In this document: positions 5,781 through 63,990 of the stretch, piece by piece
Layout: every line of letters starts with the position of its first letter
Numbering within the stretch: the first letter of the stretch is position 1
Source: Struthio camelus
Taxonomy: Eukaryota
DNA length: 64,000 nucleotides
Direction of reading: 5' to 3'
NCBI RefSeq assembly: GCF_040807025.1
Contig: NC_090970.1
Coordinates: 709,359 to 773,358, forward strand
The notes under the pieces: generated by a model
Database searches by the model: none
The model's input: the letters and a program-made list of their open reading frames with translations, nothing else
What the model was told of the DNA's origin: nothing
Position numbers and translations under genes: made by a program

Positions 5781-5790
5781 TCCGGCTCAC

Positions 5791-13866: not shown

Positions 13867-13899
13867 CTGCCGGACGCCGGGGCCCGCTCGGACGCCGGG

Positions 13900-23020: not shown

Positions 23021-23071
23021 GAGGCCGCCGTTGCTGACGATGGCGCTGAGCGACACGGCCGTGAGCAGCAT
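22978..23071 (-). CDS. SLC12A6: SLC12A6-like exon (TM1b): MLLTAVSLSAIVSNGGLPA[EDPGVREEPRQL](G)
   Basis: Matches KCC TLLTAISMSAIATNGVVPA. Acceptor cccgttctcctcccgcag at 23072 is strong. There is no GT directly after ...GGLPA. The first strong, phase-compatible donor is CTG G|GTGAGG at 22977. Using it adds 12 residues derived from the 18-bp satellite (EDPGVREEPRQL) to the TM1-TM2 loop. The alternative is a non-canonical donor near 23014. Confidence 0.55.
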
Positions 23072-23229
23072 CTGCGGGAGGAGAACGGGAGGGGGGGGGG
23101 AGGGCCGGACGCCTGGGTCCCCCAGCGCACGCGCGGCACCCCCCCGACACGCCAACGACACGCGACTCCGCCGCCCCCCCCGCCGCAGCCCCACACACCA
23201 CCGCGCGCCCCCTCCCCACGCCAGCCGCC

Positions 23230-25110
23230 AGCCCGCCCCATATCTGGGTCCCTCCCCGGACGCCTGGGCCCCTTCGCTCCCGAACACCTGGGCCCCCGAA
23301 CCCCCTCACCCGGACGCCTGGGCCCCCCGATCAGACACCTGGGTCCCTTTCCCGGACGCCTGGGCCCCTTCCCTCCCGGACACCTGGGCCCCCTGCTGCC
23401 CTGGGCACCTGAACCCCCTCACCCAGACGCCTGGGCCCCCCGATCGGACACCTGGGCCCCTTCCCTTTCCCGGACACCTGGGCCCCTTCCCTCCCGGACG
23501 CCTGGGCCCTTCTGTCCCCCAACGCCTGAACCCCCTCACCCGGACGCCTGGGCCCCTTCCCGGACGCCTGGGCCCCTTCTGTCCCCCAACGCCTGAACCC
23601 CCTCACCCGGACGCCTGGGCCCCTTCCCCGGACGCCTGGGCCCCCGGATCAGATACCCGAGTCCCTTTCCCGGACGCCTGGGCCCCTCCCCCAGATGCCT
23701 GGACCCCCCAATCAGATACCTGAACCCCCTCACCCGGACACCTGGGCCCCCTGCCGCCCCGGACACCTGGGCCCCCCCCCCCCAAACACACACGAGGGTC
23801 CCTCTCCCGGACGCCGGGGCCCCTCCCCGTGCCGCCCGGACGCCGGGGCCCCCCGCTCTCACCCTCGGCGGCAGGACTCCCGGCCGCTCGTTACGCCCCG
23901 CGCGCGCTAACGACGGGCCGGGCTTACGCGGGCTCCCCCCCCCCCCCCGCCGGACCCATGATTCGGGCGTGACCTGAGCATGACCTTAGCGTGTCACCCC
24001 ACCCCGCGGCGTGACCTTAGCGTGTGGCCCCGCCCCGCGCCCCGCCCCGCTCACGCAGGCGCAGCACAGCAGCCCGGCGCCCAGGGCCTGCAGCAGCCCG
24101 GCCGTGCCGACCACCCAGGCCAGGCGGAGGAAGAGGACGAGGCCGAAGACGTCCTGCAGGCAGGGCAGGAAGACGCCCCGCAGCGGGCCCCGGCCCCCGG
24201 CCTGCCGCCCGGACGCCGGGGTCCGCACCCGCACGGCCTGGGCCCCCCTCTGCCTCCTCCCTCCCGCGCGCGCGCCGCGAGCCCGGACGCCTGGGCCCCT
24301 TCTCGGGCGCTCGGGTCCCTCTCCCGGACGCCTGGGCCCTTTCTCCAAAGGACTGGGTCTCTTCTCCCCGGACGCCTGGGCCCCTCCTGTCTCGTACATC
24401 GGGGCCCCATCCCCGGACACCTGGGCCCCTTCCCCCCCAGACACCTGGACCTCCTCACCCGGACGCCTGGGCCCCTTCACTCCCGGACGCCTGGGCCCCC
24501 CGATCAGACACCTGAGTCCCTTTCCCGGACACCTGGGCCCCTTCCCTCCCGGACGCCTGGGTCCCTTCACTCCCGGACTTCTGGGCCCCTTCCCCCCCCG
24601 GACGCCTGGGCCACTTCCCCCCCCCAGACGCCTGGGCCCCCCAAATAGACACCTGAGTCCCTTTCCCGGACGCCTGGGCCCCTCACCCGGACACCTGGGC
24701 CCCTTCCCTCCCGGACACCTGGGCCCCCTGCCGCCCTGGGCACCTGGATCCACACCCGGACGCCTGGGCCCCTTCGCTCCCGGATGCCTGGGAGCTTCTG
24801 TCCCCCAACGCCTGAACCCCCTCACCCGGACGCCTGGGCCCCTTCCCTCCCGGACGCCTGGGCCCCCCGATCAGATACCTGAGTCCCTTTCCCGGACGCC
24901 TGGGCCCCTCACCCGGACGCCTGGGCCCCCCGATCAGATACCTGAGTCCCTTTCCCGGACGCCTGGGCCCCTCCCCCGGACGCCTGGGCCCCTCCCCCGG
25001 ACGCCTGGGCCCCCCAATCAGATACCTGAACCCCCTCACCCGGACGCCTGGGCCCCTTCCCTCCCGGACACCTGAGTCCCCCTCCCCCACAAACACGAGG
25101 GTCCCTCCCC
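23230..25110. repeat. 18-bp satellite family with degenerate variants, spanning two introns of the SLC12A6-like gene
   Basis: Same family. It is interrupted by the exons at 24055-24201. Confidence 0.8.
24055..24201 (-). CDS. SLC12A6: SLC12A6-like exon (TM1a): [49 protein letters not shown]
   Basis: Matches KCC [46 protein letters not shown]. Donor TGC|GTGAGC. The 5' acceptor cag at 24202-24204 is phase-compatible but has a poor pyrimidine tract. The linker to the previous exon is 11 aa shorter than in KCC1/KCC3, so this boundary is uncertain. Confidence 0.6.
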
Positions 25111-25164
25111 CGGACGCCGGGGCCCCTCCCCGTGCCGCCCGGACGCCGGGGCCCCCCGCTCTCA

Positions 25165-37200: not shown

Positions 37201-39135
37201 CCAGACGCCTGGGCCCCCTCCCCGGACACCTGGGCCCCCTTCCCCGGACGCCTGGGCCCCTCCCCGGACACCTGGGTCCCTCCCCCGGACACCTGAGTCC
37301 CTCCCTGGACGCCTGGGCCCCTCCCCGGACGCCTGGGCCCTTGCCCGGACGCCTGGGCCCCTCCCCGGACGCCTGGGCCCCTCCCCGGACACCTGGGTCC
37401 CTCCCCCGGACACCTGGGCCCCTTCCCCGGACACCTGGGCCCCTTCCCAGACACCTGGGCCCCTCCCCGGACGCCTGGGCCCCTTCCCGGACGCCTGGAC
37501 CCCTCCCCCGGACACCTGGGCCCCTCCCCGGACGCCTGGGCCCCTCCCCGGACGCCTGGGTCCCCTCCCTGGACACCTGGGTCCCTCCCCGGACGCCTGG
37601 GACCCTTCCCCGGACACCTGGGCCCCTTCCCAGACACCTGGGCCCCTCCCCGGACGCCTGGGCCCCTTCCCGGACACCTGGACCCCTCCCCCAGACACCT
37701 GGGCCCCCTCCCTGGACACCTGGGCCCCTGCCCGGACACCCGGGCCCCTTCCCCAGACGCCTGGGCCCCTTCCCCGGACGCCTGGGCCCCTCCCGGACGC
37801 CTGGGCCCCTCTCCCCGCACACCTGGGTCCCTCTCCCAGACGCCTGGGCCCCTTCCCGGACACCTGGGCCCCTCCCCGGACACCTGGGCCCCTCCCAGAC
37901 GCTTGGGCCCCTTCCCCGGACACGTGAGTCCCTCCCCGGACGCCTGGGTCCCCTGTCCCCAGACGCCTGGGCCCCTCCCCCGGACGCCTGGGCCCCCTCC
38001 CCGGACACCTGGGCCCCTTCCCCGGACGCCTGGGCCCCATCTCCCGGACGCCTGGGCCCCTGCCCCGGACGCCTGGGTCCCTCCCCGGACACCTGGGCCC
38101 CTCCCCGGACACCTGGGCCCCTTCCCCGGACGCCTGGGCCCCCTCCCCGGACGCCAGGGACCCTTCCCCGGACGCCAGGGACCCTTTCCCGGACACTTGG
38201 GCCCCTCCCCGGACACCTGGGCCCCTCCCCCGGACGCCTGGGCCCCTCTCCCTGCACACCTGGGCCCCTCCCCGGACGCCTGGGCCCCTTCCCGGACACC
38301 TGGACCCCTCCCCCGGACACCTGGGCCCCTCCCCGGACGCCTGGGCCCCTCCCCGGACGCCTGGGTCCCCTCCCTGGACACCTGGGTCCCTCCCCGGACG
38401 CCTGGGCCCCTTCCCCGGACGCCTGGGCCCCTTCCCGGACACCTGGGCCCCTCCCCGGACACCTGGGCCCCTCCCAGACGCTTGGGCCCCTTCCCCGGAC
38501 ACGTGAGTCCCTCCCCAGACGCCTGGGTCCCCTGCCCCGGACGCCTGGGCCCCTCCCCCGGACGCCTGGGCCCCCTCCCCGGACACCTGGGCCCCTTCCC
38601 CGGACGCCTGGGCCCCTTCCCGGACACCTGGGCCCCTCCCCGGACACCTGGGCCCCTCCCAGACGCTTGGGCCCCTTCCCCGGACACGTGAGTCCCTCCC
38701 CAGACGCCTGGGTCCCCTGCCCCGGACGCCTGGGCCCCTCCCCCGGACGCCTGGGCCCCCTCCCCGGACACCTGGGCCCCTTCCCCGGACGCCTGGGCCC
38801 CTCCTCTGGATGCCTGGGCCCCATCTCCCGGACGCCTGGGCCCCTGCCCCGGACGCCTGGGTCCCTCCCCGGACACCTGGGCCCCTCCCCGGACGCCTGG
38901 GCCCCTCCCCGGACGCCAGGGACCCTTCCCCGGACGCCAGGGACCCTTTCCCGGACACTTGGGCCCCTCCCCGGACACCTGGGTCCCTTCCCCGGACACC
39001 TGGGCCCCTTCCCCGGACACCTAGGCCCCCTCCCCAGACAGCTGAGTCCCTCCCCCAGATGCTTGGGCCTCCTCCCCCGCACGCCTGGGCCCCTCCCCGG
39101 ACGCCTGGGCCCCTCCCCGGACGCCTGGGCCCCTC
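28275..39135. repeat. Major 18-bp satellite array (GGACGCCTGGGCCCCTYCCC), about 10.9 kb, about 600 units, with nested higher-order periodicities of about 2.53 kb and about 3.7 kb
   Basis: Identical long peptides recur in the ORF track at 34477 and 37007 and at 35373 and 37903 (both pairs 2530 bp apart), and at 30783 and 34477 (3694 bp apart). The array fills the interval between the CRE/TATA promoter and the NOP10 polyA site. Confidence 0.95.
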
Positions 39136-39171
39136 CCCCAGGCGCAGCCACGTGCTCTCTCTGCATCATCC

Positions 39172-40559: not shown

Positions 40560-41050
40560 CACCGGGCAGGGGCCCAGGCGTCCGGGGAGGGGCCCAGGTG
40601 TCCGGGGAAGGGGCCCAGGTGTCCGGGGAGGGGGCCCAGGCGTCCGGGTAAGGGGCCCAGGTGTCCGGGAGGGGCCCAGGTGTCCGGGGAAGGGGCCCAG
40701 GTGTCCGGGGAGGGGGCCCAGGCGTCCGGGAAGGGGCCCAGGCGTCCGGGGAGGGGGCCCAGGCGTCCGGGGAAGGGGCCCAGGCGTCCGGGGAGGGGGC
40801 CCAGGCGTCCGGGGAGGGGCCCAGGAGTCCGGGGAGGGGCCCAGGTGTCTGGGGAAGGGGCCCAGGAGTCCGGGGAGGGGCCCAGGTGTCTGGGGAAGGG
40901 GCCCAGGCGTCCGGGGAGGGGCCCAGGTGTCTGGGGAAGGGAACCAGGTGTCTGGCAAGGGGCCCAGGCGTCCGGGGAGGGGCCCAGGCATCCTGGGAAG
41001 GGGCCCAGGTGTCAGCAGAGGGGCCCAGGCGTCCGGGGAGGGGCCCAGGC
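40560..41050. repeat. 18-bp satellite family (GGGCCCAGGCGTCCGGGG orientation) inside the NOP10 / NUT-like divergent promoter interval
   Basis: Same family as the major array, about 27 units. Confidence 0.85.
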
Positions 41051-41316
41051 GTCCAGGCCCCGCCCAGAAGCCGTTGGGACGGTCGGGGCGGGGGCCGTTT
41101 CCATGGTGCCCCCCCGCTTGCTTGAGGCCAGGACACCTGGGTCCCTCTCCCAGCCCCACCACCCCGGTCGCCCGGGTCCCCTTGAGGGGTGTCGGGGGGC
41201 AACAAGGGCACCCGGACGCCTGGGTCCCTGCTTGGGGGAGGGGCGCGGACCCCCCCCTTCTTCCTGCCCCCCAGCTCCTCCCCCAGCAGAGGGAAGGGGG
41301 GGGGTCCTGCCCCATC

Positions 41317-41684: not shown

Positions 41685-42737
41685 CTGGTGGAGCGACGTC
41701 TGCGGGAGCTCGGCCCCCCGGCTTCCTCCGACGTGGCCGCCGCTGCGGAGGGTCCCGAGGCCACCAAGATGGCCGCCAGGCCCAGGAGTGAGGGCCCAGC
41801 CAACGTGGCTGCTCCCAAAGAGCACCTCGTGGCTGCCAAGATGGCCGCCAGCCCCAGGAGTGAGGGCCCAGCCAACATGGCTGCTCCCATAGAGCACCTC
41901 GTGGCTGCCAAGATGGCCACCAGCCCCAGGAGTGAGGGCCCAGCCAACATGGCTGCTCCCATAGAGCACCTCGTGGCTGCCAAGATGGCCGCCAGCCCCA
42001 GGAGTGAGGGCCCAGCCAACATGGCTGCCCCCACGGAGCGCCCCATGGCCTTCAAGATGGCTGCTAGCCCCACAAGTGGTAGTATAGCCAACGTGGCTGC
42101 CCCCACGGAGTGCCGCACGCCCGCCAAGATGGCCGACAGCACGGTGAGGGATGGCGCCCCCATCCTGGCTGCCACCGTGACCTGCCCCGCACCTCCCAAG
42201 ATGGCCGCCAGCCCCGTGAGCGTTGACACGCCCAATATGGCTGCCCCCGCGGAGCAGCCTGTGGCCTCCAAGATGGCCGACGGCGCCGTGAGAGATGCTG
42301 CGTCCAGCATGGCCGCTGCCGTAGAGCATCTCGCGGCCTCCAAGATGGCCGACAGCAGTGGGAGTGACGGCGCCCCCAAGATGGCCGCCCCCACGGAGCG
42401 CCCTGTGCCTTCCAAGATGGCTGCTGGCCCCATGAGTGACGACGCCCCCAAGATGGCCGCCCCCACGGAGCGCCCTGCATCCCCCAAGATGGCCGCCAGC
42501 CCCGTGACCCGCAGCGCCGCCAAGATGGCCGCCGCCCACGCCAGCCCCGCCCCCAAGATGGCCGCCCGCCGCGCGACTCGCGCCTCCCCCAAGGTGGCCG
42601 CCGCCCCTCCGGTGACCCGCGGCGCCGCCAAGATGGCCGCCGAGCTCCGCCCGCCGGGCCCCGCCCCCAAGATGGCCGCCACCGCTCCGCGGGGGCGGGG
42701 CCGCCCCGCCCGCCGGGCCCCGCCCCCCACCCCGTAG
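41685..42737 (+). CDS. NUTM1: NUTM1-like terminal exon: LVERRLREL... followed by about 15 tandem 20-aa units (AAKMAASPRSEGPANMAAPIEHLV variants), ending ...RRAPPPTP*
   Basis: Begins with the NUT block LVQKRLMALEEE. Acceptor ccttgtccccgcag. It is an uninterrupted 1053-nt ORF to a TAG at 42735. The 60-bp coding repeats carry AAGATGGCCGCC, a one-mismatch version of the YY1 consensus. No AATAAA is seen downstream, so the 3' end is unknown. Confidence 0.65.
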   Translation: MVERRLRELGPPASSDVAAAAEGPEATKMAARPRSEGPANVAAPKEHLVAAKMAASPRSEGPANMAAPIEHLVAAKMATSPRSEGPANMAAPIEHLVAAKMAASPRSEGPANMAAPTERPMAFKMAASPTSGSIANVAAPTECRTPAKMADSTVRDGAPILAATVTCPAPPKMAASPVSVDTPNMAAPAEQPVASKMADGAVRDAASSMAAAVEHLAASKMADSSGSDGAPKMAAPTERPVPSKMAAGPMSDDAPKMAAPTERPASPKMAASPVTRSAAKMAAAHASPAPKMAARRATRASPKVAAAPPVTRGAAKMAAELRPPGPAPKMAATAPRGRGRPARRAPPPTP

Positions 42738-47889: not shown

Positions 47890-48640
47890 GCAGCAGACAG
47901 GGCTTAGGGGGCGGGGCCAGGCCGGGGACACGCCCCCGGCCCCGCCCACACGGCCCCGGACCCGCCCACACGCCCCAAGCCCCGCCCACACTGCAGCCCC
48001 CCCCTCCAGCGCCGGCCCGTAGCGCTCCTCGTACTGCAGCAGCTGCAGCAGACGCGGCTCGGGGGGCGGGGCCAGGCCGGGGACACGCCCCCGGCCCCGC
48101 CCACACGGCCCCGGACCCGCCCACACGCCCCCGGCCCCGCCCACACGCCCCAAGCCCCGCCCACACTGCAGCCCCCCCCTCCAGCGCTGGCCCGTAGCGC
48201 TCCTCGTACTGCAGCAGCAGCTGCAGCAGATGCGGCTCGGGGGGCGGGGCCAGGCCGGGGACACGCCCACGGCCCCACCCACACGCCCCCGGCCCCGCCC
48301 ACACGCCCCAGGCCCCGCCCACGCTGCAGCCCCCCCCATCCCCGCCCATAGCGCTGCTCCTACTGCAGCAGCTGCACTACAGAGCACGTTGGGGGCGGGG
48401 CCAGGGCAAGACACGCCCCCTGTCCCAAAGCCCCGCCCCTCCACCCCCTGGCCCCGCCCACAAGGCTCTGGCCCGCCCACATGGCAAACCCCGCCCCCCC
48501 CCAAAGCTCTTCCCAAACGGCAGCAGCTGCACTGGCCCACGTGCCTGGGGGCGGGGCCAGGCAAGGACACGCCCCCGCCCTGCCCCCGAGCACTTGGCCC
48601 CGCCCCTAGCCCCGCCCAGAGTGCACCCAGGGCCTGCAAA
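47890..48640. repeat. About 180-bp segmental triplication including decayed copies of the 5' part of TTC5 exon 7 (TTC5 intron 6)
   Basis: ...CTCCAGCGCCGGCCCGTAGCGCTCCTCGTACTGCAGCAGCTGCAGCAGAC... occurs at 47840-47900, 48005-48065 and 48185-48245. Confidence 0.8.
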
Positions 48641-51429: not shown

Positions 51430-54400
51430 CCCCCGTCGGCCCCCGGCCACGCACACGCCAAGGGGGGGGGCTGGCGGGTGCGCGAACACGCCAAGGGGGG
51501 GCTGGTGGGTGTGTGAACACGCCAAGGGGGGCTCGCGGGTGTGCGAACACGCCAACGGGGGGCTCATGGGTGTGCGAACACGCCAAGGGGAGCTCGCGGG
51601 TGTGCGAACACGCCAAGGGGGGTTCGCGGGTGTGCGAACACGCCAAGGGGGGTTCGCGGGTGTGCGAACACGCCAAGGGGGGCTCACGGGTGTGCGAACA
51701 CGCCAAGGGGGGCTGGCGGGTGTGTGAACACGCCAACGGGGGGCTGGCGGGTGTGCGAACACGCCAAGGGGGGCTGGCGGGTGTGCGAACACGCCAACGG
51801 GGGGCTGGCGGGTGTGCGAACACGCCAAGGGGGGCTGGCGGGTGCGCGAACACGCCAAGGGGGGCTGGCGGGTGTGTGAACACGCCAACGGGGGGCTGGC
51901 GGGTGTGCGAACACGCTAAGGGGGGCTCGCGGGTGTGCGAACACGCCAAGGGGGGCTCACGGGTGTGCGAACACGCCAAGGGGGGCTGGCGGGTGTGTGA
52001 ACACGCCAACGGGGGGCTGGCGGGTGTGCGAACACGCCAAGGGGGGCTGGCGCGTGTGCGAACACGCCAAGGGGGGGCTGGTGGGTGTGTGAACACGCCA
52101 AGGGGGGCTGGCGTGTGTGTGAACACGCCAACGGGGGCTGGCGTGTGCGCAAACACGCCAACGGGGGGCTGGCGGCTGTGCGAACACGCAAAGGGGGGTT
52201 CGCGGGTGTGCGAACACGCCAAGGGGGGGCTCACGGGTGTGTGAACACGCCAAGGGGGGGCTCACGGGTGTGCAAACACGCCAAGGGGGGCTGGCGGGTG
52301 TGCGAACACGCCAAGGGGAGCCCGCGTGTGTGCGAACACGCCAACGGGGGCTGGCGGGTGTGTGAACACGCCAACGGGGGCTCGCGTGTGTGTGAACACG
52401 CCAACGGGGGGCTCGCGTGTGTGCGAACACGCCAAGGGGGGCTCGCGGGTGTGTGAACACGCCAACGGGGGGCTCACGGGTGTGCGAACACGCCAACGGG
52501 GGTTGGCGGGTGTGCGAACATGCCAACGGGGGGCTGGCGGGTGTGCGAACACGCCAAGGGGGGCTGGTGGGTGCGCGAACACGCCAAGGGGGGGCTCACG
52601 GGTGTGCGAACACGCCAAGGGGGGCTCGCGGGTGTGCGAACACGCCAAGGGGGGCTGGCGGGTGTGCGAACACGCCAAGGGGGGGCTCACGGGTGTGCGA
52701 ACACGCCAAGGGGGGCTGGCGGGTGTGCGAACACGCCAAGGGGGGGCTCACGGGTGTGCGAACACGCCAAGGGGGGCTCGCGGGTGCGCGAACACGCCAA
52801 GGGGGGCTGGTGGGTGTGCGAACACGCCAAGGGGGGCTGGTGGGTGCGCGAACACGCCAAGGGGGGGCTGGCGGGTGTGCGAACACGCCAACGGGGGGGG
52901 CTGGCGGGTGCGCGAACACGCCAAGGGGGGCTGGCGGGTGCGCGAACACGCCAAGGGGGGCTCGCAGGTGTGCGAACACGCCAAGGGGGGCTGGCGGGTG
53001 TGCGAACACGCCAAGGGGGGGCTCACGGGTGTACGAACACGCCAAGGGGGGGCTGGCGGGTGTGCGAACACGCTAAGGGGGCCTCACGTGTGCGCAAACA
53101 CGCCAACGGGGGGCTCGCGTGCGTGCGAACACGCCAAGGGGGACTCGCGGGTGTGCGAACACGCCAAGGGGGGGCTGGCGGGTGTGTGAACACGCCAACG
53201 GGGGGCTGGCGGGTGTGTGAACACGCCAAGGGGGGCTCGCGGGTGTGCGAACACGCCAAGGGGGGGCTCACGGGTGTGTGAACACGCCAACGGGGGGTTC
53301 ACGGGTGTGCAAACACGCCAAGGGGGGCTGGCGGGTGTGCGAACACGCCAAGGGGAGCCCGCGTGTGTGCGAACACGCCAACGGGGGGCTGGCGGGTGTG
53401 TGAACACGCCAACGGGGGCTCGCGTGTGTGTGAACACGCCAACGGGGGGCTCGCGTGTGCGCAAACACGCCAAGGGGGGCTCGCGGGTGTGTGAACACGC
53501 CAACGGGGGGCTCACGGGTGTGCGAACACGCCAACGGGGGTTGGCGGGTGTGCGAACATGCCAACGGGGGGCTGGCGGGTGTGCGAACACGCCAAGGGGG
53601 GCTGGTGGGTGCGCGAACACGCCAAGGGGGGGCTCACGGGTGTGCGAACACGCCAAGGGGGGCTCGCGGGTGTGCGAACACGCCAAGGGGGGCTGGCGGG
53701 TGTGCGAACACGCCAAGGGGGGGCTCACGGGTGTGCGAACACGCCAAGGGGGGCTGGCGGGTGTGCGAACACGCCAAGGGGGGGCTCACGGGTGTGCGAA
53801 CACGCCAAGGGGGGCTCGCGGGTGCGCGAACACGCCAAGGGGGGCTGGTGGGTGTGCGAACACGCCAAGGGGGGCTGGTGGGTGCGCGAACACGCCAAGG
53901 GGGGGCTCACGGGTGTGCGAACACGCCAACGGGGGGGGCTGGCGGGTGCGCGAACACGCCAAGGGGGGCTGGCGGGTGCGCGAACACGCCAAGGGGGGCT
54001 CGCAGGTGTGCGAACACGCCAAGGGGGGGCTCACGGGTGTACGAACACGCCAAGGGGGGGCTGGCGGGTGTGCGAACACGCTAAGGGGGGCTCACGTGTG
54101 CGCAAACACGCCAACGGGGGGCTCGCGTGTGTGCGAACACGCCAAGGGGGACTCGCGGGTGTGCGAACACGCCAAGGGGGGGCTGGCGGGTGTGTGAACA
54201 CGCCAACGGGGGGCTGGCGGGTGTGTGAACACGCCAAGGGGGGCTCGCGGGTGTGCGAACACGCCAAGGGGGGGCTCACGGGTGTACGAACACGCCAAGG
54301 GGGGGCTGGCGGGTGTGCGAACACGCCAAGGGGGGCTCACGGGTGTGCGAACACGCCAAGGGGGGGCTGGCGGGTGTGCGAACACGCTAAGGGGGGCTCA

Positions 54401-54790
54401 CGGGTGTGCAAACACGCCAACGGGGGGCTCGCGTGTGTGCGAACACGCCAAGGGGGACTCGCGGGTGTGCGAACACGCCAAGGGGGGGCTGGTGGGTGTG
54501 CGAACACGCCAACGGGGGGCTGGCGGGTGTGCGAACACGCCAACGGGGGGCTGGCGGGTGTGCGAACACGCCAAGGGGGGCTGGCGGGTGTGTGAACACG
54601 CCAATGGGGGGCTGGCGGGTGTGCGAACACGCCAAGGGGGGGCTGGTGTGTGTGCGAACACGCCAACGGGGGGCTGGCGGGTGTGCGAACACGCCAAGGG
54701 GGGCTGGCGGGTGTGTGAACACGCCAACGGGGGCTCACGGGTGCGCGAACACGCCAAGGGGGGCTCGCGTGTGCGCGCACACGCTAAGGG
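51430..54790. repeat. 30-bp satellite CGAACACGCCAAGGGGGGCTSGCGGGTGTG, about 110 copies, 3.3 kb (TTC5 intron 4)
   Basis: A very regular period is directly visible. Confidence 0.95.
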
Positions 54791-55222
54791 GTGCTCGCAC
54801 GTGCGCGTACGCGCGCCATGGCTGCACACGCCAACGGCCACTCCCCACGCGTGCACACGCCAGTGCCGCGCTGAACACGCGTGTGCGCGTCCCCGGATGC
54901 GGCTCCGGACGCACACGCGTGGCAAGGCAGTGCTTAACGCGCGCGCGCGTCCCGAGGCACCGCTAAGCGCACGCTAAGGCTTCCTTACATACGTGCAGCC
55001 GCCAACACGCCGAGCAGCACGTGCACGCGGTAACGACACGCTTAGCACACGCCAAGGGTCCCCTTCGCCCGTGCACGCAGCCAGCGCTCCCTCAACACGC
55101 GTGTGCGCACGCCAAAGCACCGCCAGACGCACGCGTGCCCCAACCGGGACCCCCCCCCCCCGCCGGGTGCACACGCGTGTCCGTCCCCCCCCAACACGCG
55201 TGTCCGGGCCGGGCGGACTCAC

Positions 55223-55358
55223 ACCAGGAGCGGCCGTCGGCGGGGTCGAGGCGCACGGCGGCCTTGGCGTGTTCGACGCTCTCGCGCACGGCCCCGGGGC
55301 CCCGGCCCGCCTGGCGCAGCGCCATCGACAGGCACCGCAGCGCCTCCTTGTCCGGGCC
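55223..55358 (-). CDS. TTC5: TTC5 exon 4: GPDKEALRCLSMALRQAGRGPGAVRESVEHAKAAVRLDPADGRSW
   Basis: Matches TTC5 [50 protein letters not shown]. Donor T|GTGAGT. The GTG-start of ORF-track entry 55092..55376 confirms the coordinates. 136 nt. Confidence 0.85.
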
Positions 55359-55439
55359 CTGCCCCACGCCAAGCACACGCTAAGCACACGCCAAGCACAC
55401 GCTTAGCGCACGCTTAGCGCACGCTTAGCGCACACGCCT

Positions 55440-58200
55440 AGCGCACGCGCTAAGCACGTGTGACCCCCCCCGAACACCCTGCCGCGACCCACGCGTGTCC
55501 CCCAGCCCCGCATCGTGACCCACACGTGTCCCCCAGACCCGCACGTGTCCCCCAGCCCCGCACTGGGACCCACATGTGTCCCCCAGTCCCGCACTGGGAC
55601 CCACGCGTGTCTCCCAGACCCACATCGCAACCCACACGTGTCCCCCAGACCCACACGTGTCCCCCAGTCCCGCACTGGGACCCACGCGTGTCCCCCAGAC
55701 CCACATCACAACCCACACGTGTCCCCCAGACCCACACCGGGACCCACACATGTCCCCCAGCCCCACATCATGACCCACACGTGTCCCCCAGACCTGTACG
55801 TGTCCCCCAGCCCCGCACTGGGACCCACACGTGTCCCCCAGCCCCACATCATGACCCACACATGTCCCCCAGACCCACACGTGTCCCCCAGCCCCGCACC
55901 GGGGCCCACACGTGTCCCGCAGCCCCTCTCCGTGACCCACACGTGTCCCCCAGCCCCACATCGCGACCCACACGTGTCCCCCAGCCCCACACGTGTCCCC
56001 CAGCCCCACATCGCGACCCACACGTGTCCCCCAGCCCCTCTCCGTGACCCACATGTGTCCCCCAGCCCCGCATCGTGACCCACACGTGTCCCCCAGCCCC
56101 GCATCGCGACCCACACGTGTCCCCCAGACCCGCACGTGTCCCCCAGCCCGACACCAGGACCCACACGTGTCCCGCAGCCCCTCTCTGGGACCCACACGTG
56201 TCCCCCAGCCCCGCATCGCGGCCCACACGTGTCCCCCAGACCCACACGTGTCCCCCAGCCCCGCATCGCGACCCACACGTGTCCCCCAGACCCGCACGTG
56301 TCCCCCAGACCCACACCGGGACCCACACGTGTCCCGCAGCCCCTCTCCATGACCCACACGTGTCCCCCAGCCCCGCACTGGGACCCACACGTGTCCCCCA
56401 GACCCGCACCGGGACCCACACGTGTCCCACAGCCCCTCTCTGTGACACACACGTGTCCCCCAGACCCACATCGTGACCCACCCGTGTCCCCCAGACCCTC
56501 TCTGTGACACACACGCGTCCCCCAGCCCCCCGCCGTGCCCCACACGTGTCCCCCAACCCCTCGCCGTGCCCCACCCGTGTCCCCCAGCCCCCGCCGTGCC
56601 CCACACGTGTCCCCCAGCCCCCCGCCGTGCCCCACACGTGTCCCCCAGCCCCCCGCCCTGCCCCACCCGTGCCCCCCAGCCCCCCGCCGTGCCCCACACG
56701 TGTCCCCCAACCCCTCGCCGTGCCCCACACGTGTCCCCCAACCCCCGCCGTGCCCCACACGTGTCCCCCAACCCCTCGCCGTGCCCCACACGTGTCCCCC
56801 AGCCCCCCGCCGTGCCCCACCCGTGTCCCCCAGCCCCCGCCGTGCCCCACACGTGTCCCCCAGCCCCCCGCCCTGCCCCACCCGTGTCCCCCAGCCCCCG
56901 CCGTGCCCCACACGTGTCCCCCAGCCCCCCGCCCTGCCCCACCCGTGCCCCCCAGCCCCCCGCCGTGCCCCACACGTGTCCCCCAGCCCCCCGCCCTGCC
57001 CCACGTGTCCCCCAACCCCCTGCCGTGACCCACACGTGTCCCCCAGCCCCCTGCCGTGCCCCACACGTGTCCCCCAGCCCCCCGCCGTGACCCACACGTG
57101 TCCCCCAGCCCCCCGCCGTGACCCACACGTCTCCCCCAGCCCCCCGCCGTGCCCCACACGTGTCCCCCAGCCCCCTGCCGTGACCCACACGTGTCCCCCA
57201 GCCCCCCGCCGTGCCCCACACGTCTCCCCCAGCCCCCCGCCGCGACCCACACGTGTCCCCCAGCCCCCTGCCGTGACCCACACGTGTCCCCCAGCCCCCC
57301 GCCGTGCCCCACACGTGTCCCCCAACCCCCGCCGCGACCCACACGTGTCCCCCAGCCCCCTGCCGCGACCCACACGTGTCCCCCAGCCCCCCACCGTGCC
57401 CCACACGTCTCCCCCAGCCCCCCGCCACGACCCACACGTCTCCCCCAGCCCCCCGCCGCGACCCACACGTCTCCCCCAGCCCCCCGCCGTGCCCCACACG
57501 TCTCCCCCAGCCCCCCGCCGCGACCCACACGTGTCCCCCAGCCCCCCGCCGCGACCCACACGTGTCCCCCAGCCCCCTGCCGTGACCCACACGTGTCCCC
57601 CAGCCCCCCGCCGCGACCCACACGTGTCCCCCAGCCCCCTGCCGTGACCCACACGTGTCCCCCAGCCTCCCGCCGTGCCCCACACGTGTCCCCCAACCCC
57701 CGCCGCGACCCACACGTGTCCCCCAGCCCCCGCCCTGCCCCACACGTGTCCCCCAGCCCCCCGCCGTGCCCCACCCGTGTCCCCCAGCCCCCCGCCGTGC
57801 CCCACACGTCTCCCCCAGCCCCCCGCCGTGCCCCACACGTCTCCCCCAGCCCCCCGCCGCGACCCACACGTGTCCCCCAGCCCCCTGCCGTGACCCACAC
57901 GTGTCCCCCAGCCTCCCGCCGTGCCCCACACGTGTCCCCCAACCCCCGCCGCGACCCACACGTGTCCCCCAGCCCCCGCCCTGCCCCACACGTGTCCCCC
58001 AGCCCCCCGCCGTGCCCCACCCGTGTCCCCCAGCCCCCCACCGTGCCCCACCCGTGTCCCCCAACCCCCCGCCCTGCCCCACACGTGTCCCCCAGCCCCC
58101 CACCCTGCCCCACACGTGTCCCCCAGCCCCCGCCCTGCCCCACCCGTGTCCCCCAACCCCCCGCCCTGCCCCACCCGTGCCCCCCAGCCCCCCGGGGCGG
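55440..58200. repeat. About 30-bp satellite CACACGTGTCCCCCAGCCCCGC(RYCGTGMC), each unit carrying a canonical E-box CACGTG. About 90 copies, 2.7 kb (TTC5 intron 3).
   Basis: CCCACACGTGTCCCCCAGCCCC recurs throughout. Confidence 0.9.
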
Positions 58201-58207
58201 CTCTCAC

Positions 58208-58419
58208 GTGGCCGAGGGCGCCGGCGAAGCAGGCCCGGGCGGCCTCGAGGTCTCCGCGACGCCATCGGGCTTCGCCCAGGCGGGTCCAGGCCTCGGCCAG
58301 ACCCGGCGCCAACTTGACGGCCCGGCCCAGGGCGGCTTCGGCCCGGGGGGCGCCGGCGGGGGTGGCGCTCAGCGCCCGCGCCCGCAGCACCAGCGCCCGG
58401 CCCCGGCTGCGGCCCGACA
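58208..58419 (-). CDS. TTC5: TTC5 exon 3 (TPR): (V)SGRSRGRALVLRARALSATPAGAPRAEAALGRAVKLAPGLAEAWTRLGEARWRRGDLEAARACFAGALGH
   Basis: Matches TTC5 [69 protein letters not shown]. Acceptor ccccccggcccccacccgcag, donor CAC|GTGAGA. 212 nt. Confidence 0.85.
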
Positions 58420-58429
58420 CTGCGGGTGG

Positions 58430-59470
58430 GGGCCGGGGGGGGGGTCATTCGGGCCCCACGGCGTCGCCTCTGCCCCACGGCGCCGGGGCGGGAGGGGGGG
58501 GGTGCTGAGCGGGCAGGGGGCCCCGGGGCATTGTGGGATACGCTGGGGGAGCTATCGGCAGGGTGGATTGTGGGACGGAGAGCGAACGGCTGCCCCAGGG
58601 CATCGTGGGGTAGAAGGGGGAGGTGCTGCCCCACAGCATCGTGGGGTAGAAGGGGGAGGCGCTGCCCCACGGCATCGTGGGGTAGAAGGGGGAGGCGCTG
58701 CCCCAAGGCATCGTGGGATAGAAGGGGGAGGTGCTGCCCCACGGCATCGTGGGGTAGAAGGGGGAGGTGCTGCCCCACGGCATCGTGGGGGAGGGGAGCC
58801 GCCACCCCAGGGCATCATGGGACGCAACAGAGCACCTACTGCCCCACGGCATTGTGGGATACAGGAGGGGAGCTGCTGCCCCAGGGCATCATGGGATAGA
58901 GCGGGGGAGCTACTGCCCTGGGGCGTTATGGGCTGTGTGCCGTGGGGCAGGACCCCTGCCCCAGAGCATTATGGGTTGTGGGGCAGGACCTCCACCCCAG
59001 AGCATTATGGGTTGTGGGACAGGACCCCTGCCCCAGAGCATTATGGGTTGTGGGGGCAGGACCTCCACCCCAGGGCATTATGGGCCTCGTGCTGTGGGGC
59101 AGGACCCCTACCCCAGGGCATTGTGGGTCATGGGGCAGGACCTCTGCTCTGAGGCATTATGGGCCACGTGCCGTGGGGCAGGACCCCCGCCCCAGAGCAT
59201 TATGGGCCATGGGGCAGGACCTCCACCCCAGGGCATTATGGGCCACGTGCTGTGGGGCAGGACCCCCACCCCAAGGCGTTATGGGGATGCCCTGGGGACC
59301 TCTGCCCCAGGGCATTATGGGTCACGTGCCATGGAGCAGAACCCCCACCTTGGGGCACTACGGGCCGCGGGCCGTGGGGCGGGACCCCCACCCCACGGTA
59401 TGACGGGCCATGGGGCAGGACCCCCGCCCCGGGGCATCGTGGGCCGCGCGCCGTGGGGCAGGACCCCCGC
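58430..59470. repeat. Two adjacent ~30-45-bp tandem families (CATCGTGGGGTAGAAGGGGGAGGYGCTGCCCCAYGG and GCATTATGGGYYGTGGGGCAGGACCYCYGCCCCAGR) (TTC5 intron 2)
   Basis: Direct repeats visible at 58600-58800 and 58930-59300. Confidence 0.75.
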
Positions 59471-59699: not shown

Positions 59700-60540
59700 G
59701 GGCCCAGGCGTCCGGGGATGCCCCCGAGGGGCCCAGGCGTCCGGGGATGCCCCCAGGGACCCAGGCGTCCGGGGATGCTCCCGGGGGGCCCAGGCGTCCG
59801 GGGATGCTCCCGCGGGGCCCAGGCGTCCGGGGATCCTCCCGCGGGGCCCAGGAGTCCGGGGATCCTCCCGGGGGACCCAGGCGTCCGGGGACGCTCCCGC
59901 GGGAACCCAGGAGTCCGGGGATGCTCCCGGGGGGCCCAGGCGTCCGGGGATGCTCCCGCGGGAACCCAGGAGTCCGGGGATGCTCCTGGGGGACCCAGGC
60001 GTCCGGGGACGCTCCCGAGGGGCCCAGGCGTCCGGGGATGCTCCCAGGGAACCCAGGCGTCCGGGGATGCCCCCAGGGACCCAGGAGTCCGGGGATGCTC
60101 CCGGGGGGCCCAGGCGTCCGGGGACGCTCCCGCGGGACCCAGGCGTCCGGGGATGCTCCCGGGGGGCCCAGGCGTCCAGGGACGCTCCCAGGGACCCAGG
60201 CGTCCGGGGATGCTCCCAGGGACCCAGGCGTCCGGGGATGCTCCCGCGGGGCCCAGGCGTCCGGGGATGCTCCCGCGGGGCCCAGGCGTCCAGGGACGCT
60301 CCCAGGGACCCAGGCGTCCGGGGACGCTCCCAGGGACCCAGGCGTCCGGGGATGCTCCCGGGGGGCCCAGGCGTCCGGGGATGCTCCCGCGGGGCCCAGG
60401 CGTCCGGGGATGCTCCCGCGGGGCCCAGGCGTCCGGGGATGCTCCCGGGGGGCCCAGGCGTCCGGGGATGCTCCCGGGGGGCCCAGGCGTCCGGGGATGC
60501 TCCCGCGGGCCCAGGTGTCCGGGGATGCCCCCGAGGGGCC
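59700..60540. repeat. About 29-bp variant of the 18-bp family (GGCCCAGGCGTCCGGGGATGCTCCCGSGG), TTC5 intron 1
   Basis: About 28 units. It shares the GGCCCAGGCGTCCGGGGA core. Confidence 0.85.
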
Positions 60541-60603
60541 CAGGCGTCCTGGTCTGCCCCTCCCCCCCCCGCCAGGGGCCCAGGCGTCCGGGGCCGCCCC
60601 CAC

Positions 60604-60705
60604 CTCCAGGGTCCGCAGCGCCTCCGCGTCGCCGTCGCCTTCCTCCTCCTCCTCCTCCTCCTCCTCCTTCGCCACCGCCGGCTCCGCCGGCTCCGCCGCC
60701 GCCAT
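60604..60705 (-). CDS. TTC5: TTC5 exon 1: MAAAEPAEPAVAKEEEEEEEEEGDGDAEALRTLE
   Basis: ATG at 60705-60703 in good Kozak context (gccATGg). It has an acidic N-terminus like human MMADEEEEVKPILQKLQ. Donor GAG|GTGGGG. The (GAG)9 is a coding microsatellite. Confidence 0.75.
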
Positions 60706-61080
60706 GGCCGCGCCGGGCCCCGCCCCCGCCGCCGGCTGCGCGCGCAGCACGGCCCCGCCCCCTCCTCCCCGCCCCTTCCCCAGGCCCCGCCCCCTCCCCC
60801 GCAGCGGCGTCTCCGAGCCGGAGACACCCCCCCTCCCGCCACGTGACCCACAACCCCCCACGTGACCCTCCCCCCTTCCTTCCCGTGGCCCCGCCCCTAG
60901 CGGCGGCGCGGGGCGGGGCCTCCGGGGGGCGGGGCCGGCTCGCCCGCTCCCCCCCCCGGGGAGCCGAAGGGGAAGAAGCTGCCGCCCGCCGCGGGGGGAG
61001 GGGAGGCCCCGAAGAGGGGCCCGAAGGCGCCCGGCGGCGTCGCCACGGCAACCGCACCTGCGGGGGGGGGGGGAAGGGGA
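60706..61080 (-). promoter_or_regulatory. TTC5: TTC5 CpG-island promoter/5'UTR with multiple Sp1 GC boxes and two E-boxes CACGTGAC (60840-60847, 60859-60866)
   Basis: Contains GGGGCGGGG/CCCCGCCCC boxes and CACGTGAC twice, 19 bp apart. It lies directly upstream of the TTC5 ATG on the minus strand. Confidence 0.5.
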
Positions 61081-62390
61081 CGTCACCGGCCGCCGTCTTG
61101 CTCACCGCCATGGCGGCCGCCATAGCGCCCCAGCCCCACGGAGGCCGCCATCTTGCCCACCGCCATGGCGGCCGCCATCTTGCCCACCGCCATGGCGGCC
61201 GCCATAGCGCCCCTTCCCTGTAGTCGCCATCTTGCCCATCCCCATGGCGGCCGCCATCGTACCCCCTCCCAATGGTGGCCGCCATTTTGCCCACTGCAGC
61301 CATCTTTCCCATTGTGGCCATCTTGCCCACCCTCATGGAGACCACCATCTTGCCCACTGCCATGGCAGCCACCATTGTACCCCCTCTCAATGGTGGCTGC
61401 CATCTTGCCCACCGCCGGAGCAGCTGCCATCTTAACCCCCCACAGCAGTGATCATCTTACCCACCATTGCCATCCTGCCTACAGCCCATGGCGGCCACCA
61501 TCTTACCCCTCCCTCATGGCGGCCGCCATCTTGCCCACTGCCATGGCAGCCGCCATCTTACCTAGCGTGGCCATCTAACCCCCCCCCCACCATGGTGGCC
61601 ACTGTCTTACCCACGGCAGCCATCTTACCCACCACCATGGCAGCCGCCATCGCCCCCACCACAACCAGATTGCACCGTGCCCCATGGCAGCCACCATCTT
61701 CCCCACCACCATGGGGGCCGCCATCTTACCCAGCGCCATGGCAGCTGCCATCTTACCTACTATGCCCATCTAAGCCTCTCCCCCATGGGGGCCACCATCT
61801 TACTCGCCACCATGGGGGCCGCCATCTTACCCACCACCACGGTGGCTGCCATCTTGCCTACCACGCCCATATAACACCCCTCCATGGCAGCCACCATCTT
61901 ACCCAACACCATGGCAGCCACCATCTTACCACCATAGCGGTCGCCATCTTACCCACCACCACGGTGGCCGCCATCTTGCCTACCACGCCCATAAAACACC
62001 CCTCCATGGCAGCCACCATCTTACCCAACACCATGGCGGCCACCATCTTACTCACCACCATAGCGGTCGCCATCTTACCCACCACCATGGTGGCTGCCAT
62101 CTTGCCTACCACGCCCATATAACACCCCTCCATGGCAGCCACCATCTTACCCACCGCCACGGCGGCCGCCGCCTCCCCCACCACAACCATATCGCGCCGT
62201 TCCCCACGGCGGCAGCCATCTTGCCCCTTCCCCACAGCGGCGGCCATCTTGTCCCTTCCCCGTGGCGCCGATCACCTTCCCCGCCACAGCCGCCTCCCCC
62301 TCCCCGTGGCGGCCATGTCGCCCTCCCCACGGCAGCCATCTTCCCCCGCCGCCGCGGCCATCCTTCCGCCTTGCCCGCAGCAGCGGCGGC
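61080..62390. repeat. GCCGCCATCTTGCC (YY1-consensus) satellite, about 30-60-bp units, about 1.3 kb, between the TTC5 promoter and the last mapped CCNB1IP1 exon
   Basis: CCATGGCGGCCGCCATCTTGCCCACCG recurs. The antisense reads GKMAAAMAV repeats, which are artefacts. Confidence 0.85.
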
Positions 62391-63894: not shown

Positions 63895-63990
63895 CGCTAC
63901 TGCGCATGCGCCGCCCGCGCCGCTTCCCGCCCTCAGGGCGCGCCCCGCCCCTAGAGACCGCTGCCGGCCACCGCGCATGCGCCGCTTCCC
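63895..63990. promoter_or_regulatory. Direct repeat carrying two NRF1 palindromes GCGCATGCGC (63902-63911, 63973-63982). A candidate promoter element for CCNB1IP1 or for a gene beyond the window end.
   Basis: The unit GCGCATGCGCCGC...TTCCCGCCCTCAGGG occurs twice about 70 bp apart at the window edge. Confidence 0.4.

What the first reader, a model, noticed from the sequence alone, without database searches (positions are those of the whole stretch)
55440..58200. About 90 canonical E-boxes (CACGTG) at about 30-bp spacing inside TTC5 intron 3
Every unit of this satellite contains CCCACACGTGTCCCC. Regularly spaced E-boxes over 2.7 kb could act as a sink for bHLH-ZIP factors such as MYC/MAX, USF and TFE/MITF, or could simply be a neutral satellite whose unit happens to contain the palindrome. 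Two further E-boxes lie in the TTC5 promoter (60840-60866). The same kind of coincidence appears in the 33-bp intronic repeat at 800-1100, whose early units carry the NRF1 palindrome GCGCATGCGC, and in the NRF1 pair at 63895-63990.
Basis: seen in the sequence. Interest (0 to 1): 0.5.

Follow-up and report, generated by a model that had tools for sequence, protein, structure and literature searches.

The report
E-box minisatellite in ostrich TTC5 intron
A 2.7-kb tandem repeat that fills intron 3 of the ostrich TTC5 gene carries 64 (not about 90) CACGTG motifs; these are most likely passenger copies of local sequence next to the exon 3 splice site, multiplied by the repeat instability typical of GC-rich bird microchromosomes, and not a purpose-built transcription-factor sink.

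Summary
The repeat is real, but the count is too high. There are 91 units (mostly 31 bp) at 55488-58200. Of these, 63 keep CACGTG, and one more lies in a degenerate unit at 55455, giving 64 against about 1.1 expected by chance. The window is ostrich, and the array fills about 95% of TTC5 intron 3 (minus strand), so the gene call is right.

The E-box is not specially preserved. It is the least conserved 6-mer inside the 18-bp core, and two E-box-destroying variants have themselves been amplified.

The exon 3/intron 3 junction reads CAC|GTGAG in ostrich, emu, kiwi, vulture, crane and turtle. In ostrich this junction E-box lies exactly one 31-bp period from the last unit. In kiwi the junction equals the unit apart from a 2-nt gap. 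In emu the exon 3 end plus its donor site is tandemly copied six times.

Crane and turtle have short introns with no E-box array. Vulture has a different G-rich repeat with no CACGTG.

This matches "sequence stuttering", described in chicken dot chromosomes in 2026. The E-boxes are best read as passengers. A transcription-factor sink is neither supported nor excluded, because binding and methylation cannot be tested here. Verdict: new member of a known kind, low to moderate interest.

The parts
55488..58200 (-). Minisatellite of 91 units (72 of 31 bp, 10 of 30 bp, 8 of 19 bp, 1 of 29 bp). On the + strand each unit is the core CCCACACGTGTCCCCCAG plus a 13-bp variable tail. On the TTC5 sense (minus) strand it reads GACACGTGTGGG[G/T]CACGGCGGGGGGCTGGGG and is 57% G.
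56508..58200 (-). Donor-proximal, more homogeneous sub-array (+ strand consensus CCCACACGTGTCCCCCAGCCCCCCGCCGTGC). It holds the amplified E-box-broken variants CCCGTG and CACGTC, and multi-unit block duplications (for example 57490-57855 repeated at +246 bp).
55488..56507 (-). Acceptor-proximal, more diverged sub-array that mixes 31-bp and 19-bp units. Its sense-strand unit GACACGTGTGGGTCACGATGCGGGGCTGGGG matches the kiwi intron 3 unit at 28 of 31 positions (compared by eye).
55451..55487 (-). Degenerate terminal unit with a CACGTG at 55455.
58205..58210 (-). Junction E-box: the last codon of exon 3 (His, CAC, 58210-58208) plus the first three intron bases GTG (58207-58205) of the donor GTGAGA. 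It lies exactly 31 bp from the hexamer of the last array unit (58174).
58208..58420 (-). TTC5 coding exon 3 (ostrich protein residues 95-165, exact match).
55224..55358 (-). TTC5 coding exon 4 (residues 166-210, exact match). Intron 3 is therefore 55359-58207 (2849 bp).
55365..55457 (-). 11-bp micro-repeat CACGCTAAGCA (sense strand TGCTTAGCGTG) at the acceptor end of intron 3. It is homologous to the TTAGCRTGT repeats that accompany the exon 4 acceptor copies in emu and kiwi.
60840..60864 (-). Two promoter E-boxes (GGTCACGTGGGG and GGTCACGTGGCG) set among GC boxes, 140-160 bp upstream of the TTC5 ATG (60703-60705).
48001..48374 (-). Copies of the first 31-44 nt of exon 7 inside intron 6: 48002-48045 (100%, 87.7 bits), 48177-48218 (75.8 bits) and 48344-48374. 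This is exon stuttering in the same gene.

Best explanation
The array is a locally generated intronic minisatellite. It is an instance of the "sequence stuttering" that fills introns of genes on GC-rich avian dot or microchromosomes.

The seed was the first roughly 20 nt of TTC5 intron 3, probably together with the last 3-5 nt of exon 3: ...(G)ACAC|GTGAGTGGGGCTGGGGG. Loss of AG gives the unit core GACACGTGTGGGGCTGGGGG. On this reading the CACGTG in each unit echoes the His codon CAC plus the GTG of the 5' splice site.

The array then grew and turned over by slippage and/or unequal exchange. Its sense strand is G-rich and prone to G-quadruplex (G4) formation, and neighbouring units can pair through the 8-bp palindrome ACACGTGT.

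The E-boxes are passengers. The array's likely effects are structural (intron length, G4 or R-loop potential, pseudo-5' splice sites), not recruitment of bHLH-ZIP factors.

Shown: the anatomy, the gene context, the lack of preferential E-box conservation, the in-phase junction, the homologous units in kiwi and emu, exon stuttering in emu and kiwi, and absence of the array in vulture, crane and turtle.
Inferred: the direction of derivation (junction to unit), the expansion mechanism, and neutrality.
For: 1. Context.
- The window encodes ostrich TTC5 exactly: 472 of 474 residues in exact blocks.
- The array fills about 95% of intron 3.
- 80% of the whole window is tandem arrays, and 4 of 33 major arrays have CACGTG in their consensus.

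2. No sign of selection on the E-box.
- CACGTG is intact in 63 of 91 units, against 64-86 of 91 for every other 6-mer window inside the 18-bp core.
- Mean per-position conservation is 0.949 in the hexamer against 0.975 in both flanks.
- CCCGTG (11 units) and CACGTC (8 units) spread with block duplications.

3. Junction link.
- CAC|GTGAG is the exon 3 junction in ostrich, emu, kiwi, king vulture, crane and softshell turtle.
- In ostrich it is exactly 31 bp in phase with the array. The background CACGTG density is 5.9e-4 per bp.
- The kiwi junction GACACGTGAGTGGGGCTGGGGGA aligns to the unit GACACGT--GTGGGGCTGGGGGA at 21 of 21 positions with one 2-nt gap; 0 of 300 shuffles reach that score.
- Kiwi also shows what look like transitional units between junction and unit, GTGAGTGGGG, then ATGAGTGGG, then GGGTGGG, then GTGTGGG (my reading of the sequence).

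4. Exon stuttering in relatives.
- Emu intron 3 holds 6 copies of the last 58-74 nt of exon 3, each followed by a donor-site copy (94-107 bits), and 7 copies of the exon 4 start (52-83 bits).
- Kiwi holds 1 and 7 such copies.
- The published chicken screen used a 42.1-bit threshold (PMC12954441).
- The ostrich core CTGGGGGACACGTGTGGG occurs unchanged 4 times in emu intron 3.

5. Relatives without the array.
- Crane intron 3 is about 85 bp and turtle 348 bp, neither with an array.
- Vulture intron 3 is about 1 kb of a different repeat that is 59% G on the sense strand and has no CACGTG.

6. Literature.
- Dot-chromosome introns are more than 70% tandem repeats, with units that are multiples of 10-11 bp and G4 motifs enriched on the coding strand (bioRxiv 10.1101/2025.10.17.683159).
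- Here the unit is 31 bp, the sense strand has 286 G-runs of 3 or more, and the mean G4Hunter score is 1.60.
Against: - In ostrich itself no exon 3 or exon 4 fragment of 30 bits or more is found in intron 3.
- Beyond the hexamer, the in-phase "unit" at the junction matches the core at only 11 of 18 positions, no better than other places in exon 3. The junction origin therefore rests on phase plus the kiwi and emu loci.
- In kiwi the intron side of the junction could have been converted by the array, rather than the array deriving from the junction.
- The unexpanded outgroup (crane) matches the unit only weakly (p = 0.007-0.3).
- The other E-box array, at 792-2149, has no CACGTG at its flanking donor site and gained its E-box by drift within the array. 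A junction origin is therefore not the general route to E-box arrays.
- The central CpG is retained in about 98% of units and array CpG observed/expected is 0.81. This fits recent amplification or biased gene conversion, but also a hypomethylated state that would permit binding.
- A 31-bp unit shared by ostrich and kiwi implies long persistence, which could reflect constraint.
- Neutrality is inferred from sequence only.
Confidence: 0.78

Rival explanations
1. Functional bHLH-ZIP platform or sink. The 64 regularly spaced CACGTG sites, 2.5-5 kb downstream of the TTC5 start, bind MYC/MAX, USF or related dimers. They would act as an intragenic enhancer or hub, or titrate these factors.
For: - 63 of 91 units carry the canonical core, with uniform A-CACGTG-T flanks in 59 of 64 sites. 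These flanks fall within the in-vivo MYC consensus VCACGTGB (PMC3324106).
- The central CpG is retained in about 98% of units, and CpG observed/expected is 0.81.
- The 31-bp spacing is about 3 helical turns.
- The same core is present in kiwi and emu.
- The TTC5 promoter also has two E-boxes.
Against: - The hexamer is the least conserved 6-mer of the core, and E-box-destroying variants were amplified.
- The array is absent from the orthologous intron of vulture, crane and turtle; vulture has a G-rich repeat without CACGTG.
- The flanks lack the 5' T / 3' A needed by MiT/TFE factors (PMC10539308).
- By my rough estimate, not a computed result, 64 sites are a very small fraction of the roughly 10^4-10^5 CACGTG expected in a 1.2-Gb genome, so global titration is implausible.
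- CpG methylation is known to block MYC/MAX and USF binding (established knowledge), and the methylation state here is unknown.
Confidence: 0.06
2. The selected property is G-richness on the sense strand, not the E-box. G-runs or RNA/DNA G-quadruplexes in intron 3 would aid definition of a GC-rich intron (G-run splicing enhancers bound by hnRNP H/F) or modulate elongation. The E-box would be incidental.
For: - Sense-strand G content of intron 3 is high in every species looked at: ostrich 57%, vulture 59%, turtle 48%, emu 39%, kiwi 38%. This holds although the repeat units differ.
- The ostrich intron has 286 G-runs of 3 or more against 11 C-runs, 55-70 G4 motifs with loops of up to 8-12 nt against 0 on the antisense strand, and a mean G4Hunter score of 1.60.
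Against: - Other TTC5 introns carry arrays that are C-rich on the sense strand. For example, intron 4 (51465-54795) is G-rich on the + strand. Sense-strand G-richness is therefore not a rule for this gene.
- 2.7 kb is far more than a splicing enhancer needs.
- No functional data exist.
Confidence: 0.12
3. Assembly artefact: the array length or uniformity is an artefact of assembling a repetitive GC-rich region.
For: - These regions are hard to sequence.
- The kiwi ortholog has a 1087-bp gap inside the same array.
Against: - Independent assemblies of emu and kiwi show homologous repeats in the same intron.
- The ostrich array has structured sub-families and imperfect block duplications, not collapsed identical copies.
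- The flanking exons are intact.
Confidence: 0.03

Closest known systems
Sequence stuttering (intron and exon stuttering) on chicken dot chromosomes (Hron et al. 2026, Genome Biol Evol, PMC12954441)
   Same: - Imperfect tandem expansion of units tens of bp long, confined to one intron between intact exons.
- GC-rich, repeat-dense region.
- Source sequence at the exon border, including the splice site.
- Exon-border copies above the published 42.1-bit threshold in emu and kiwi intron 3, and in ostrich intron 6.
   Different: - The phenomenon was described in chicken only; this case is in palaeognaths (ostrich, emu, kiwi).
- In ostrich intron 3 the exon-derived part is at most 3-5 nt, too short for the published BLAST screen.
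- Length polymorphism within the species, a defining feature, could not be tested.
- A recognisable unit is shared by ostrich and kiwi, so this array family is old, whereas the chicken events were described as evolutionarily recent.
Intronic G4-rich minisatellites of bird dot chromosomes (bioRxiv 10.1101/2025.10.17.683159)
   Same: - Minisatellite with a unit of about 3 x 10.3 bp.
- Fills most of an intron.
- G-runs and G4 motifs on the coding strand.
   Different: - That study covers zebra finch and seven other birds, and the text search found no mention of ostrich.
- It does not, as far as I read it, address transcription-factor motifs or splice-junction origin.
Human IGH minisatellite with USF / myc-HLH binding sites (Trepicchio & Krontiris 1993, Nucleic Acids Res 21:977)
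   Same: A tandem minisatellite whose unit holds a bHLH-type binding site and which was reported to influence transcription. It is a precedent for "E-box minisatellite as transcription-factor binder".
   Different: - The paper was not held in the library. Only its title was seen, in a reference list; the rest is from memory.
- That repeat was tested for protein binding. No binding data exist for the ostrich array.
- The two have no sequence relationship.
Promoter E-box pairs bound by USF or MiT/TFE factors (TCACGTGA-type sites)
   Same: The two TTC5 promoter sites (GGTCACGTGG) have the 5' T on one half-site and sit in a GC-box promoter.
   Different: The intronic array has A...T flanks, not T...A. 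It lies in the gene body and is repeated 64 times.

Membership tests
Sequence stuttering (Hron et al. 2026) | Imperfect tandem repeats of tens to hundreds of bp that fill an intron and stop at the flanking exons | tested here: met
   91 units cover about 95% of intron 3 (55359-58207), with 84-89% matches between copies. Exons 3 and 4 are intact and identical to the ostrich protein.
Sequence stuttering (Hron et al. 2026) | Repeated block includes part of the adjacent exon and its splice site (exon stuttering; BLASTn above 42.1 bits) | tested here: inconclusive
   - Ostrich intron 3: no exon hit of 30 bits or more; only the in-phase junction CAC|GTG.
- Met in emu intron 3 (6 copies at 94-107 bits; 7 copies at 52-83 bits) and in kiwi (76 bits; 35-64 bits).
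- Met in ostrich intron 6 (87.7 and 75.8 bits).
Sequence stuttering (Hron et al. 2026) | Location on a dot chromosome, or dot-like GC-rich repeat-dense euchromatin | tested here: inconclusive
   - The window is 54-81% GC and 80% tandem repeats.
- Orthologs sit on records of 0.99 Mb (emu), 0.37 Mb (vulture) and 0.54 Mb (crane).
- The ostrich protein's record is 6.96 Mb. The chromosome class of the window itself is not known.
Sequence stuttering (Hron et al. 2026) | Extensive intron-length variation between individuals | not testable with these tools
   Only one ostrich sequence is available. Between species the intron ranges from about 85 bp (crane) to about 3.6 kb (kiwi).
Selected bHLH-ZIP binding-site array | Canonical CACGTG intact in most units | tested here: met
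   63 of 91 units (69%).
Selected bHLH-ZIP binding-site array | Motif positions conserved better than neighbouring non-motif positions | tested here: not met
   The hexamer window is intact in 63 of 91 units, against 64-86 of 91 for all other windows within the core. Mean conservation is 0.949 against 0.975.
Selected bHLH-ZIP binding-site array | Flanks that fit a specific factor class | tested here: inconclusive
   A-CACGTG-T flanks in 59 of 64 sites. These are compatible with MYC VCACGTGB and not with the MiT/TFE site TCACGTGA. No position-weight-matrix scoring was done for USF or CLOCK.
Selected bHLH-ZIP binding-site array | Presence in the orthologous intron of relatives | tested here: inconclusive
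   Present in kiwi (21 CACGTG) and emu (10). Absent in vulture, crane and turtle (0 each).
Selected bHLH-ZIP binding-site array | Factor occupancy, open chromatin, unmethylated central CpG | not testable with these tools
   No ChIP, ATAC or 5mC data. Array CpG observed/expected of 0.81 is only indirect.
Coding-strand G4 minisatellites of dot-chromosome introns | G-runs or G4 motifs on the coding strand; unit a multiple of 10-11 bp | tested here: met
   - Sense strand is 57% G, with 286 G-runs of 3 or more.
- 20, 55 and 70 G4 motifs with loops of up to 7, 8 and 12 nt, against 0 on the antisense strand.
- Mean G4Hunter score 1.60; unit 31 bp.
Coding-strand G4 minisatellites of dot-chromosome introns | Actual G4 folding | not testable with these tools
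   ViennaRNA does not model G4 structures here. Only hairpins between ACACGUGU palindromes were predicted (z = -3.65).
Dispersed satellite family | The same unit at other loci | tested here: not met
   - The core with up to 2 mismatches occurs only in this array, plus two isolated sites at 10938 and 11035.
- One chance hit in the metagenome collection.
- A whole-genome ostrich search was not possible.

The most novel reading that the evidence does not exclude
The 31-bp unit, with its E-box / pseudo-5'-splice-site core GACAC|GTGTGGGG, has been kept in TTC5 intron 3 since before ostrich and kiwi diverged because it does something. Two candidate functions: an unmethylated intragenic platform with MYC/MAX-compatible E-boxes on one helical face, or an array of about 58 CAC|GUGUGG pseudo-donor sites that load U1 snRNP on the pre-mRNA. 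On this reading, splice-junction stuttering would be a route by which new cis-regulatory arrays are born.
Probability: 0.06. Interest if true: 0.55.

Novelty: new member of a known kind. Interest (0 to 1): 0.3.

Why it matters
- It explains an eye-catching motif array without invoking regulation. A canonical transcription-factor palindrome can be mass-produced when a splice junction that happens to read CAC|GTG is caught up in tandem expansion. This is a caution for motif-based scans of repeat-dense bird microchromosomes, where 80% of this window is tandem repeat and other arrays carry NRF1-like or YY1-like motifs.
- It shows that the intron and exon stuttering recently described in chicken also occurs in palaeognaths (ostrich, emu, kiwi). 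One stuttering intron can keep a recognisable unit across deep avian divergence while its architecture is rebuilt in each lineage.
- The set of species offers a natural series for studying how stuttering starts and grows: crane at about 85 bp, turtle at 348 bp, vulture at 1 kb, and palaeognaths at 2.3-3.6 kb.

Tried and rejected
- A 117-aa exon 3-4 query found no homologs because it is too diverged and compositionally biased. A 400-aa TTC5 concatenate worked.
- CCNB1IP1 homologs led only to AT-rich loci from distant species (31-36% GC), which were of no use for the intron comparison.
- A metagenome scan for the 20-mer unit gave one unrelated single-copy hit.
- Encoding-contig look-ups for ostrich, Apteryx mantelli and duck TTC5 proteins were not on record.
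- Idea: the junction resembles a whole unit beyond the hexamer. Only 11 of 18 core positions match, no better than elsewhere in exon 3. I had over-counted by eye, so the claim was reduced to phase plus comparative evidence.
- Idea: palindromes in units drive expansion and explain why transcription-factor palindromes recur in satellites. Across 33 arrays the longest palindromes are no longer than in shuffled units (9 of 33 reach 8 bp; ACACGTGT has p = 0.21). Rejected as a general rule, although neighbouring units can pair.
- Rfam found no known RNA family anywhere in the window.
- The long ORFs through the array (for example 1126 aa, 55425-58805) are stop-free artefacts of the repeat.
- The Trepicchio & Krontiris 1993 paper could not be read.
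- Megablast self-comparison of the array returned nothing usable. It was replaced by a lag scan.
Full report
**What is there.** Positions 55488-58200 hold a tandem array (TRF period 31/62, 84-89% matches).
- Anchoring on the conserved core gives 91 units: 72 of 31 bp, 10 of 30 bp, 8 of 19 bp and 1 of 29 bp.
- Each unit is an 18-bp core, CCCACACGTGTCCCCCAG, plus a variable 13-bp tail. The 19-bp units are the core alone.
- CACGTG occurs 118 times in the window against 25.6 +/- 5 in shuffles. Of these, 64 lie in 55440-58200, where about 1.1 are expected.
"About 90 E-boxes, every unit" is therefore an overcount.
- The broken units read CCCGTG (11), CACGTC (8), CGCGTG (3), CATGTG (2), CACATG (2), TACGTG (1) and CACGCG (1).

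**Gene context.** The flanking minus-strand ORFs match TTC5 structures (4abn and 6t59, E about 1e-25). A CCNB1IP1 RING exon lies at about 62.8-63.1 kb (9ges, 2e-60).
- A 400-aa concatenate of the exons retrieved bird TTC5 proteins, with ostrich as the best hit.
- 472 of the 474 ostrich residues are found as exact blocks in the window. The window is therefore Struthio camelus.
- Exon 3 is 58208-58420, exon 4 is 55224-55358, and intron 3 is 55359-58207.
- The array fills about 95% of the intron. On the transcribed sense strand it is 57% G.
So are the two promoter E-boxes (GGTCACGTGG at 60840 and 60859) and the NRF1 palindromes.

**Is the E-box preserved?** No.
- Within the core, CACGTG is the 6-mer window least often intact: 63 of 91 units, against 64-86 of 91 for the other windows.
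- Mean per-position conservation is 0.949 in the hexamer against 0.975 in both flanks.
- The two commonest E-box-destroying variants are clustered and were carried along by multi-unit block duplications, for example 57490-57855 repeated at +246 bp.
- The flanks are uniformly A-CACGTG-T. They are compatible with the in-vivo MYC consensus VCACGTGB (PMC3324106). They lack the T...A flanks needed by MiT/TFE factors (PMC10539308).

**Where the E-box comes from.** Exon 3 ends in a His codon, and the intron starts with GTGAG. The junction itself therefore reads CAC|GTG (58205-58210).
- It lies exactly 31 bp from the hexamer of the last unit. Background CACGTG density is 5.9e-4 per bp.
- Similarity beyond the hexamer is weak in ostrich (11 of 18 core positions), so I turned to relatives.
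- The same CAC|GTGAG junction is present in emu, kiwi, king vulture, crane and softshell turtle.
- In kiwi the junction GACAC|GTGAGTGGGGCTGGGGGA equals the repeat unit GACACGTGTGGGGCTGGGGGA apart from a 2-nt (AG) gap: 21 of 21 positions, and 0 of 300 shuffles score as well. What look like transitional units (my reading of the sequence) follow it.
- Kiwi also has 31-bp units that match the ostrich acceptor-proximal unit at 28 of 31 positions (compared by eye).
- In emu, a 146-bp unit repeated 6.9 times consists of the last roughly 57 nt of exon 3, the donor site and about 89 nt of intron. This gives six extra junction copies (94-107 bits). The emu unit also holds the ostrich core CTGGGGGACACGTGTGGG unchanged, four times in intron 3.
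- Exon 4 acceptor copies are repeated 7 times in emu and 7 times in kiwi.
- Crane (about 85 bp) and turtle (348 bp) have no array. Vulture has about 1 kb of a different sense-strand G-rich repeat with no CACGTG.

**Fit to what is known.** This is the pattern published in 2026 as "sequence stuttering" on chicken dot chromosomes.
- That pattern is local, imperfect tandem expansion confined to single introns. It is sometimes seeded from the exon border including the splice site, and it was linked speculatively to G4 structures and replication stress (PMC12954441).
- A preprint reports that dot-chromosome introns are more than 70% tandem repeat, with units that are multiples of 10-11 bp and G4 motifs on the coding strand.
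- The ostrich array matches all of this. The same gene shows clear exon stuttering in intron 6, where exon 7 copies score 87.7 and 75.8 bits.
- 80% of the window is tandem arrays, and 4 of 33 major arrays have CACGTG in their consensus.
- The 33-bp array at 792-2149 drifts from GCGCATGCGC through GCGCGTGCGC to CACACGTGCGC along its length. Transcription-factor-like palindromes therefore come and go inside these arrays.

**Verdict.**
- The array is a new member of a known kind, a stuttering minisatellite. Its E-boxes are most likely fossils of local splice-site-proximal sequence.
- Confidence is about 0.78 for passenger status. It is lower, roughly 0.6, for the specific step from junction to unit.
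- A sink or platform role for bHLH-ZIP factors is unsupported but cannot be excluded without methylation and occupancy data.
- A role for sense-strand G-richness is a modest rival.

Noticed in passing
window 48001-48374: The first 31-44 nt of TTC5 exon 7 (encoding LLQYEERYGPALEG) are copied three times in intron 6: 100% identity at 87.7 bits, 97.6% at 75.8 bits, and 90% at 38 bits. This is clear exon stuttering in ostrich, a phenomenon so far described in chicken.
   Followed up: partly
window 61087-62167; also 16640-17421 and 41764-42680: Tandem units carry GCCGCCATCTT / AAGATGGCGGC, which resembles the YY1 consensus. One such array fills the TTC5-CCNB1IP1 intergenic region. This is another "transcription-factor motif in every unit" case.
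   Followed up: no
window 2530-5785, 13870-16376, 22279-25158, 28292-39139, 40564-41054, 59703-60549: A 20/41-bp repeat family, GGGGCCCAGGCGTCCGGGG, recurs at six or more loci in both orientations. It includes a 10.8-kb block and TTC5 intron 1. Unlike the E-box unit, this family is dispersed.
   Followed up: no
window 792-2149: A 33-bp array lies in an intron of a minus-strand SLC12-like (cation-chloride cotransporter C-terminal) gene. Its palindrome changes along the array: GCGCATGCGC, then GCGCGTGCGC, then CACACGTGCGC, then CACACGAGC. On the sense strand it shares the 12-mer CACGTGTGGGGC with the TTC5 unit, which I cannot explain.
   Followed up: partly
window 1-64000: 80% of the window lies in TRF arrays (73% in arrays scoring 300 or more), and GC is 54-81% per 2 kb. 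No Rfam family reaches its gathering score anywhere in the window.
   Followed up: yes
window 58921-59346 (TTC5 intron 2): A 79-bp unit contains GGCCACGTGCC, giving CACGTG at 59165, 59244 and 59323. This is a second small E-box array in the same gene.
   Followed up: no
window 10938-11070: Isolated near-copies of the core (GGGGAACACGTGTGGGG and CTGGGGGACACGCGTGGG) sit at the edge of an 11-bp GGGGACNCGTT repeat field (11.1-12.9 kb).
   Followed up: no
L010 1335-2335 (king vulture TTC5 intron 3): The same intron is filled with a different repeat that is 59% G on the sense strand (GGGGGGGTTTGGGGGGGTCAGGGTGCTGGTGGGAGGGG...) and has no CACGTG. G-richness, not the E-box, is what recurs between lineages.
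   Followed up: partly
L009 8516-10915 (emu) and L013 12359-15949 (kiwi): Emu intron 3 contains six full copies of the exon 3 end, each with an intact CAC|GTGAGTGA donor site. Emu and kiwi each carry seven copies of the exon 4 acceptor region. These are potential cryptic splice sites. The kiwi assembly has a 1087-bp gap inside the array.
   Followed up: partly
window 63902-63982: Two NRF1-type palindromes (GCGCATGCGC), 71 bp apart, lie upstream of the CCNB1IP1 RING exon. This is probably ordinary promoter architecture.
   Followed up: no
window 57524-57647: When four units are folded as RNA, the ACACGUGU palindromes of neighbouring units pair into 8-bp stems (MFE -51.8 kcal/mol, z = -3.65). 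The C-rich DNA strand does the same more weakly (z = -2.15).
   Followed up: partly
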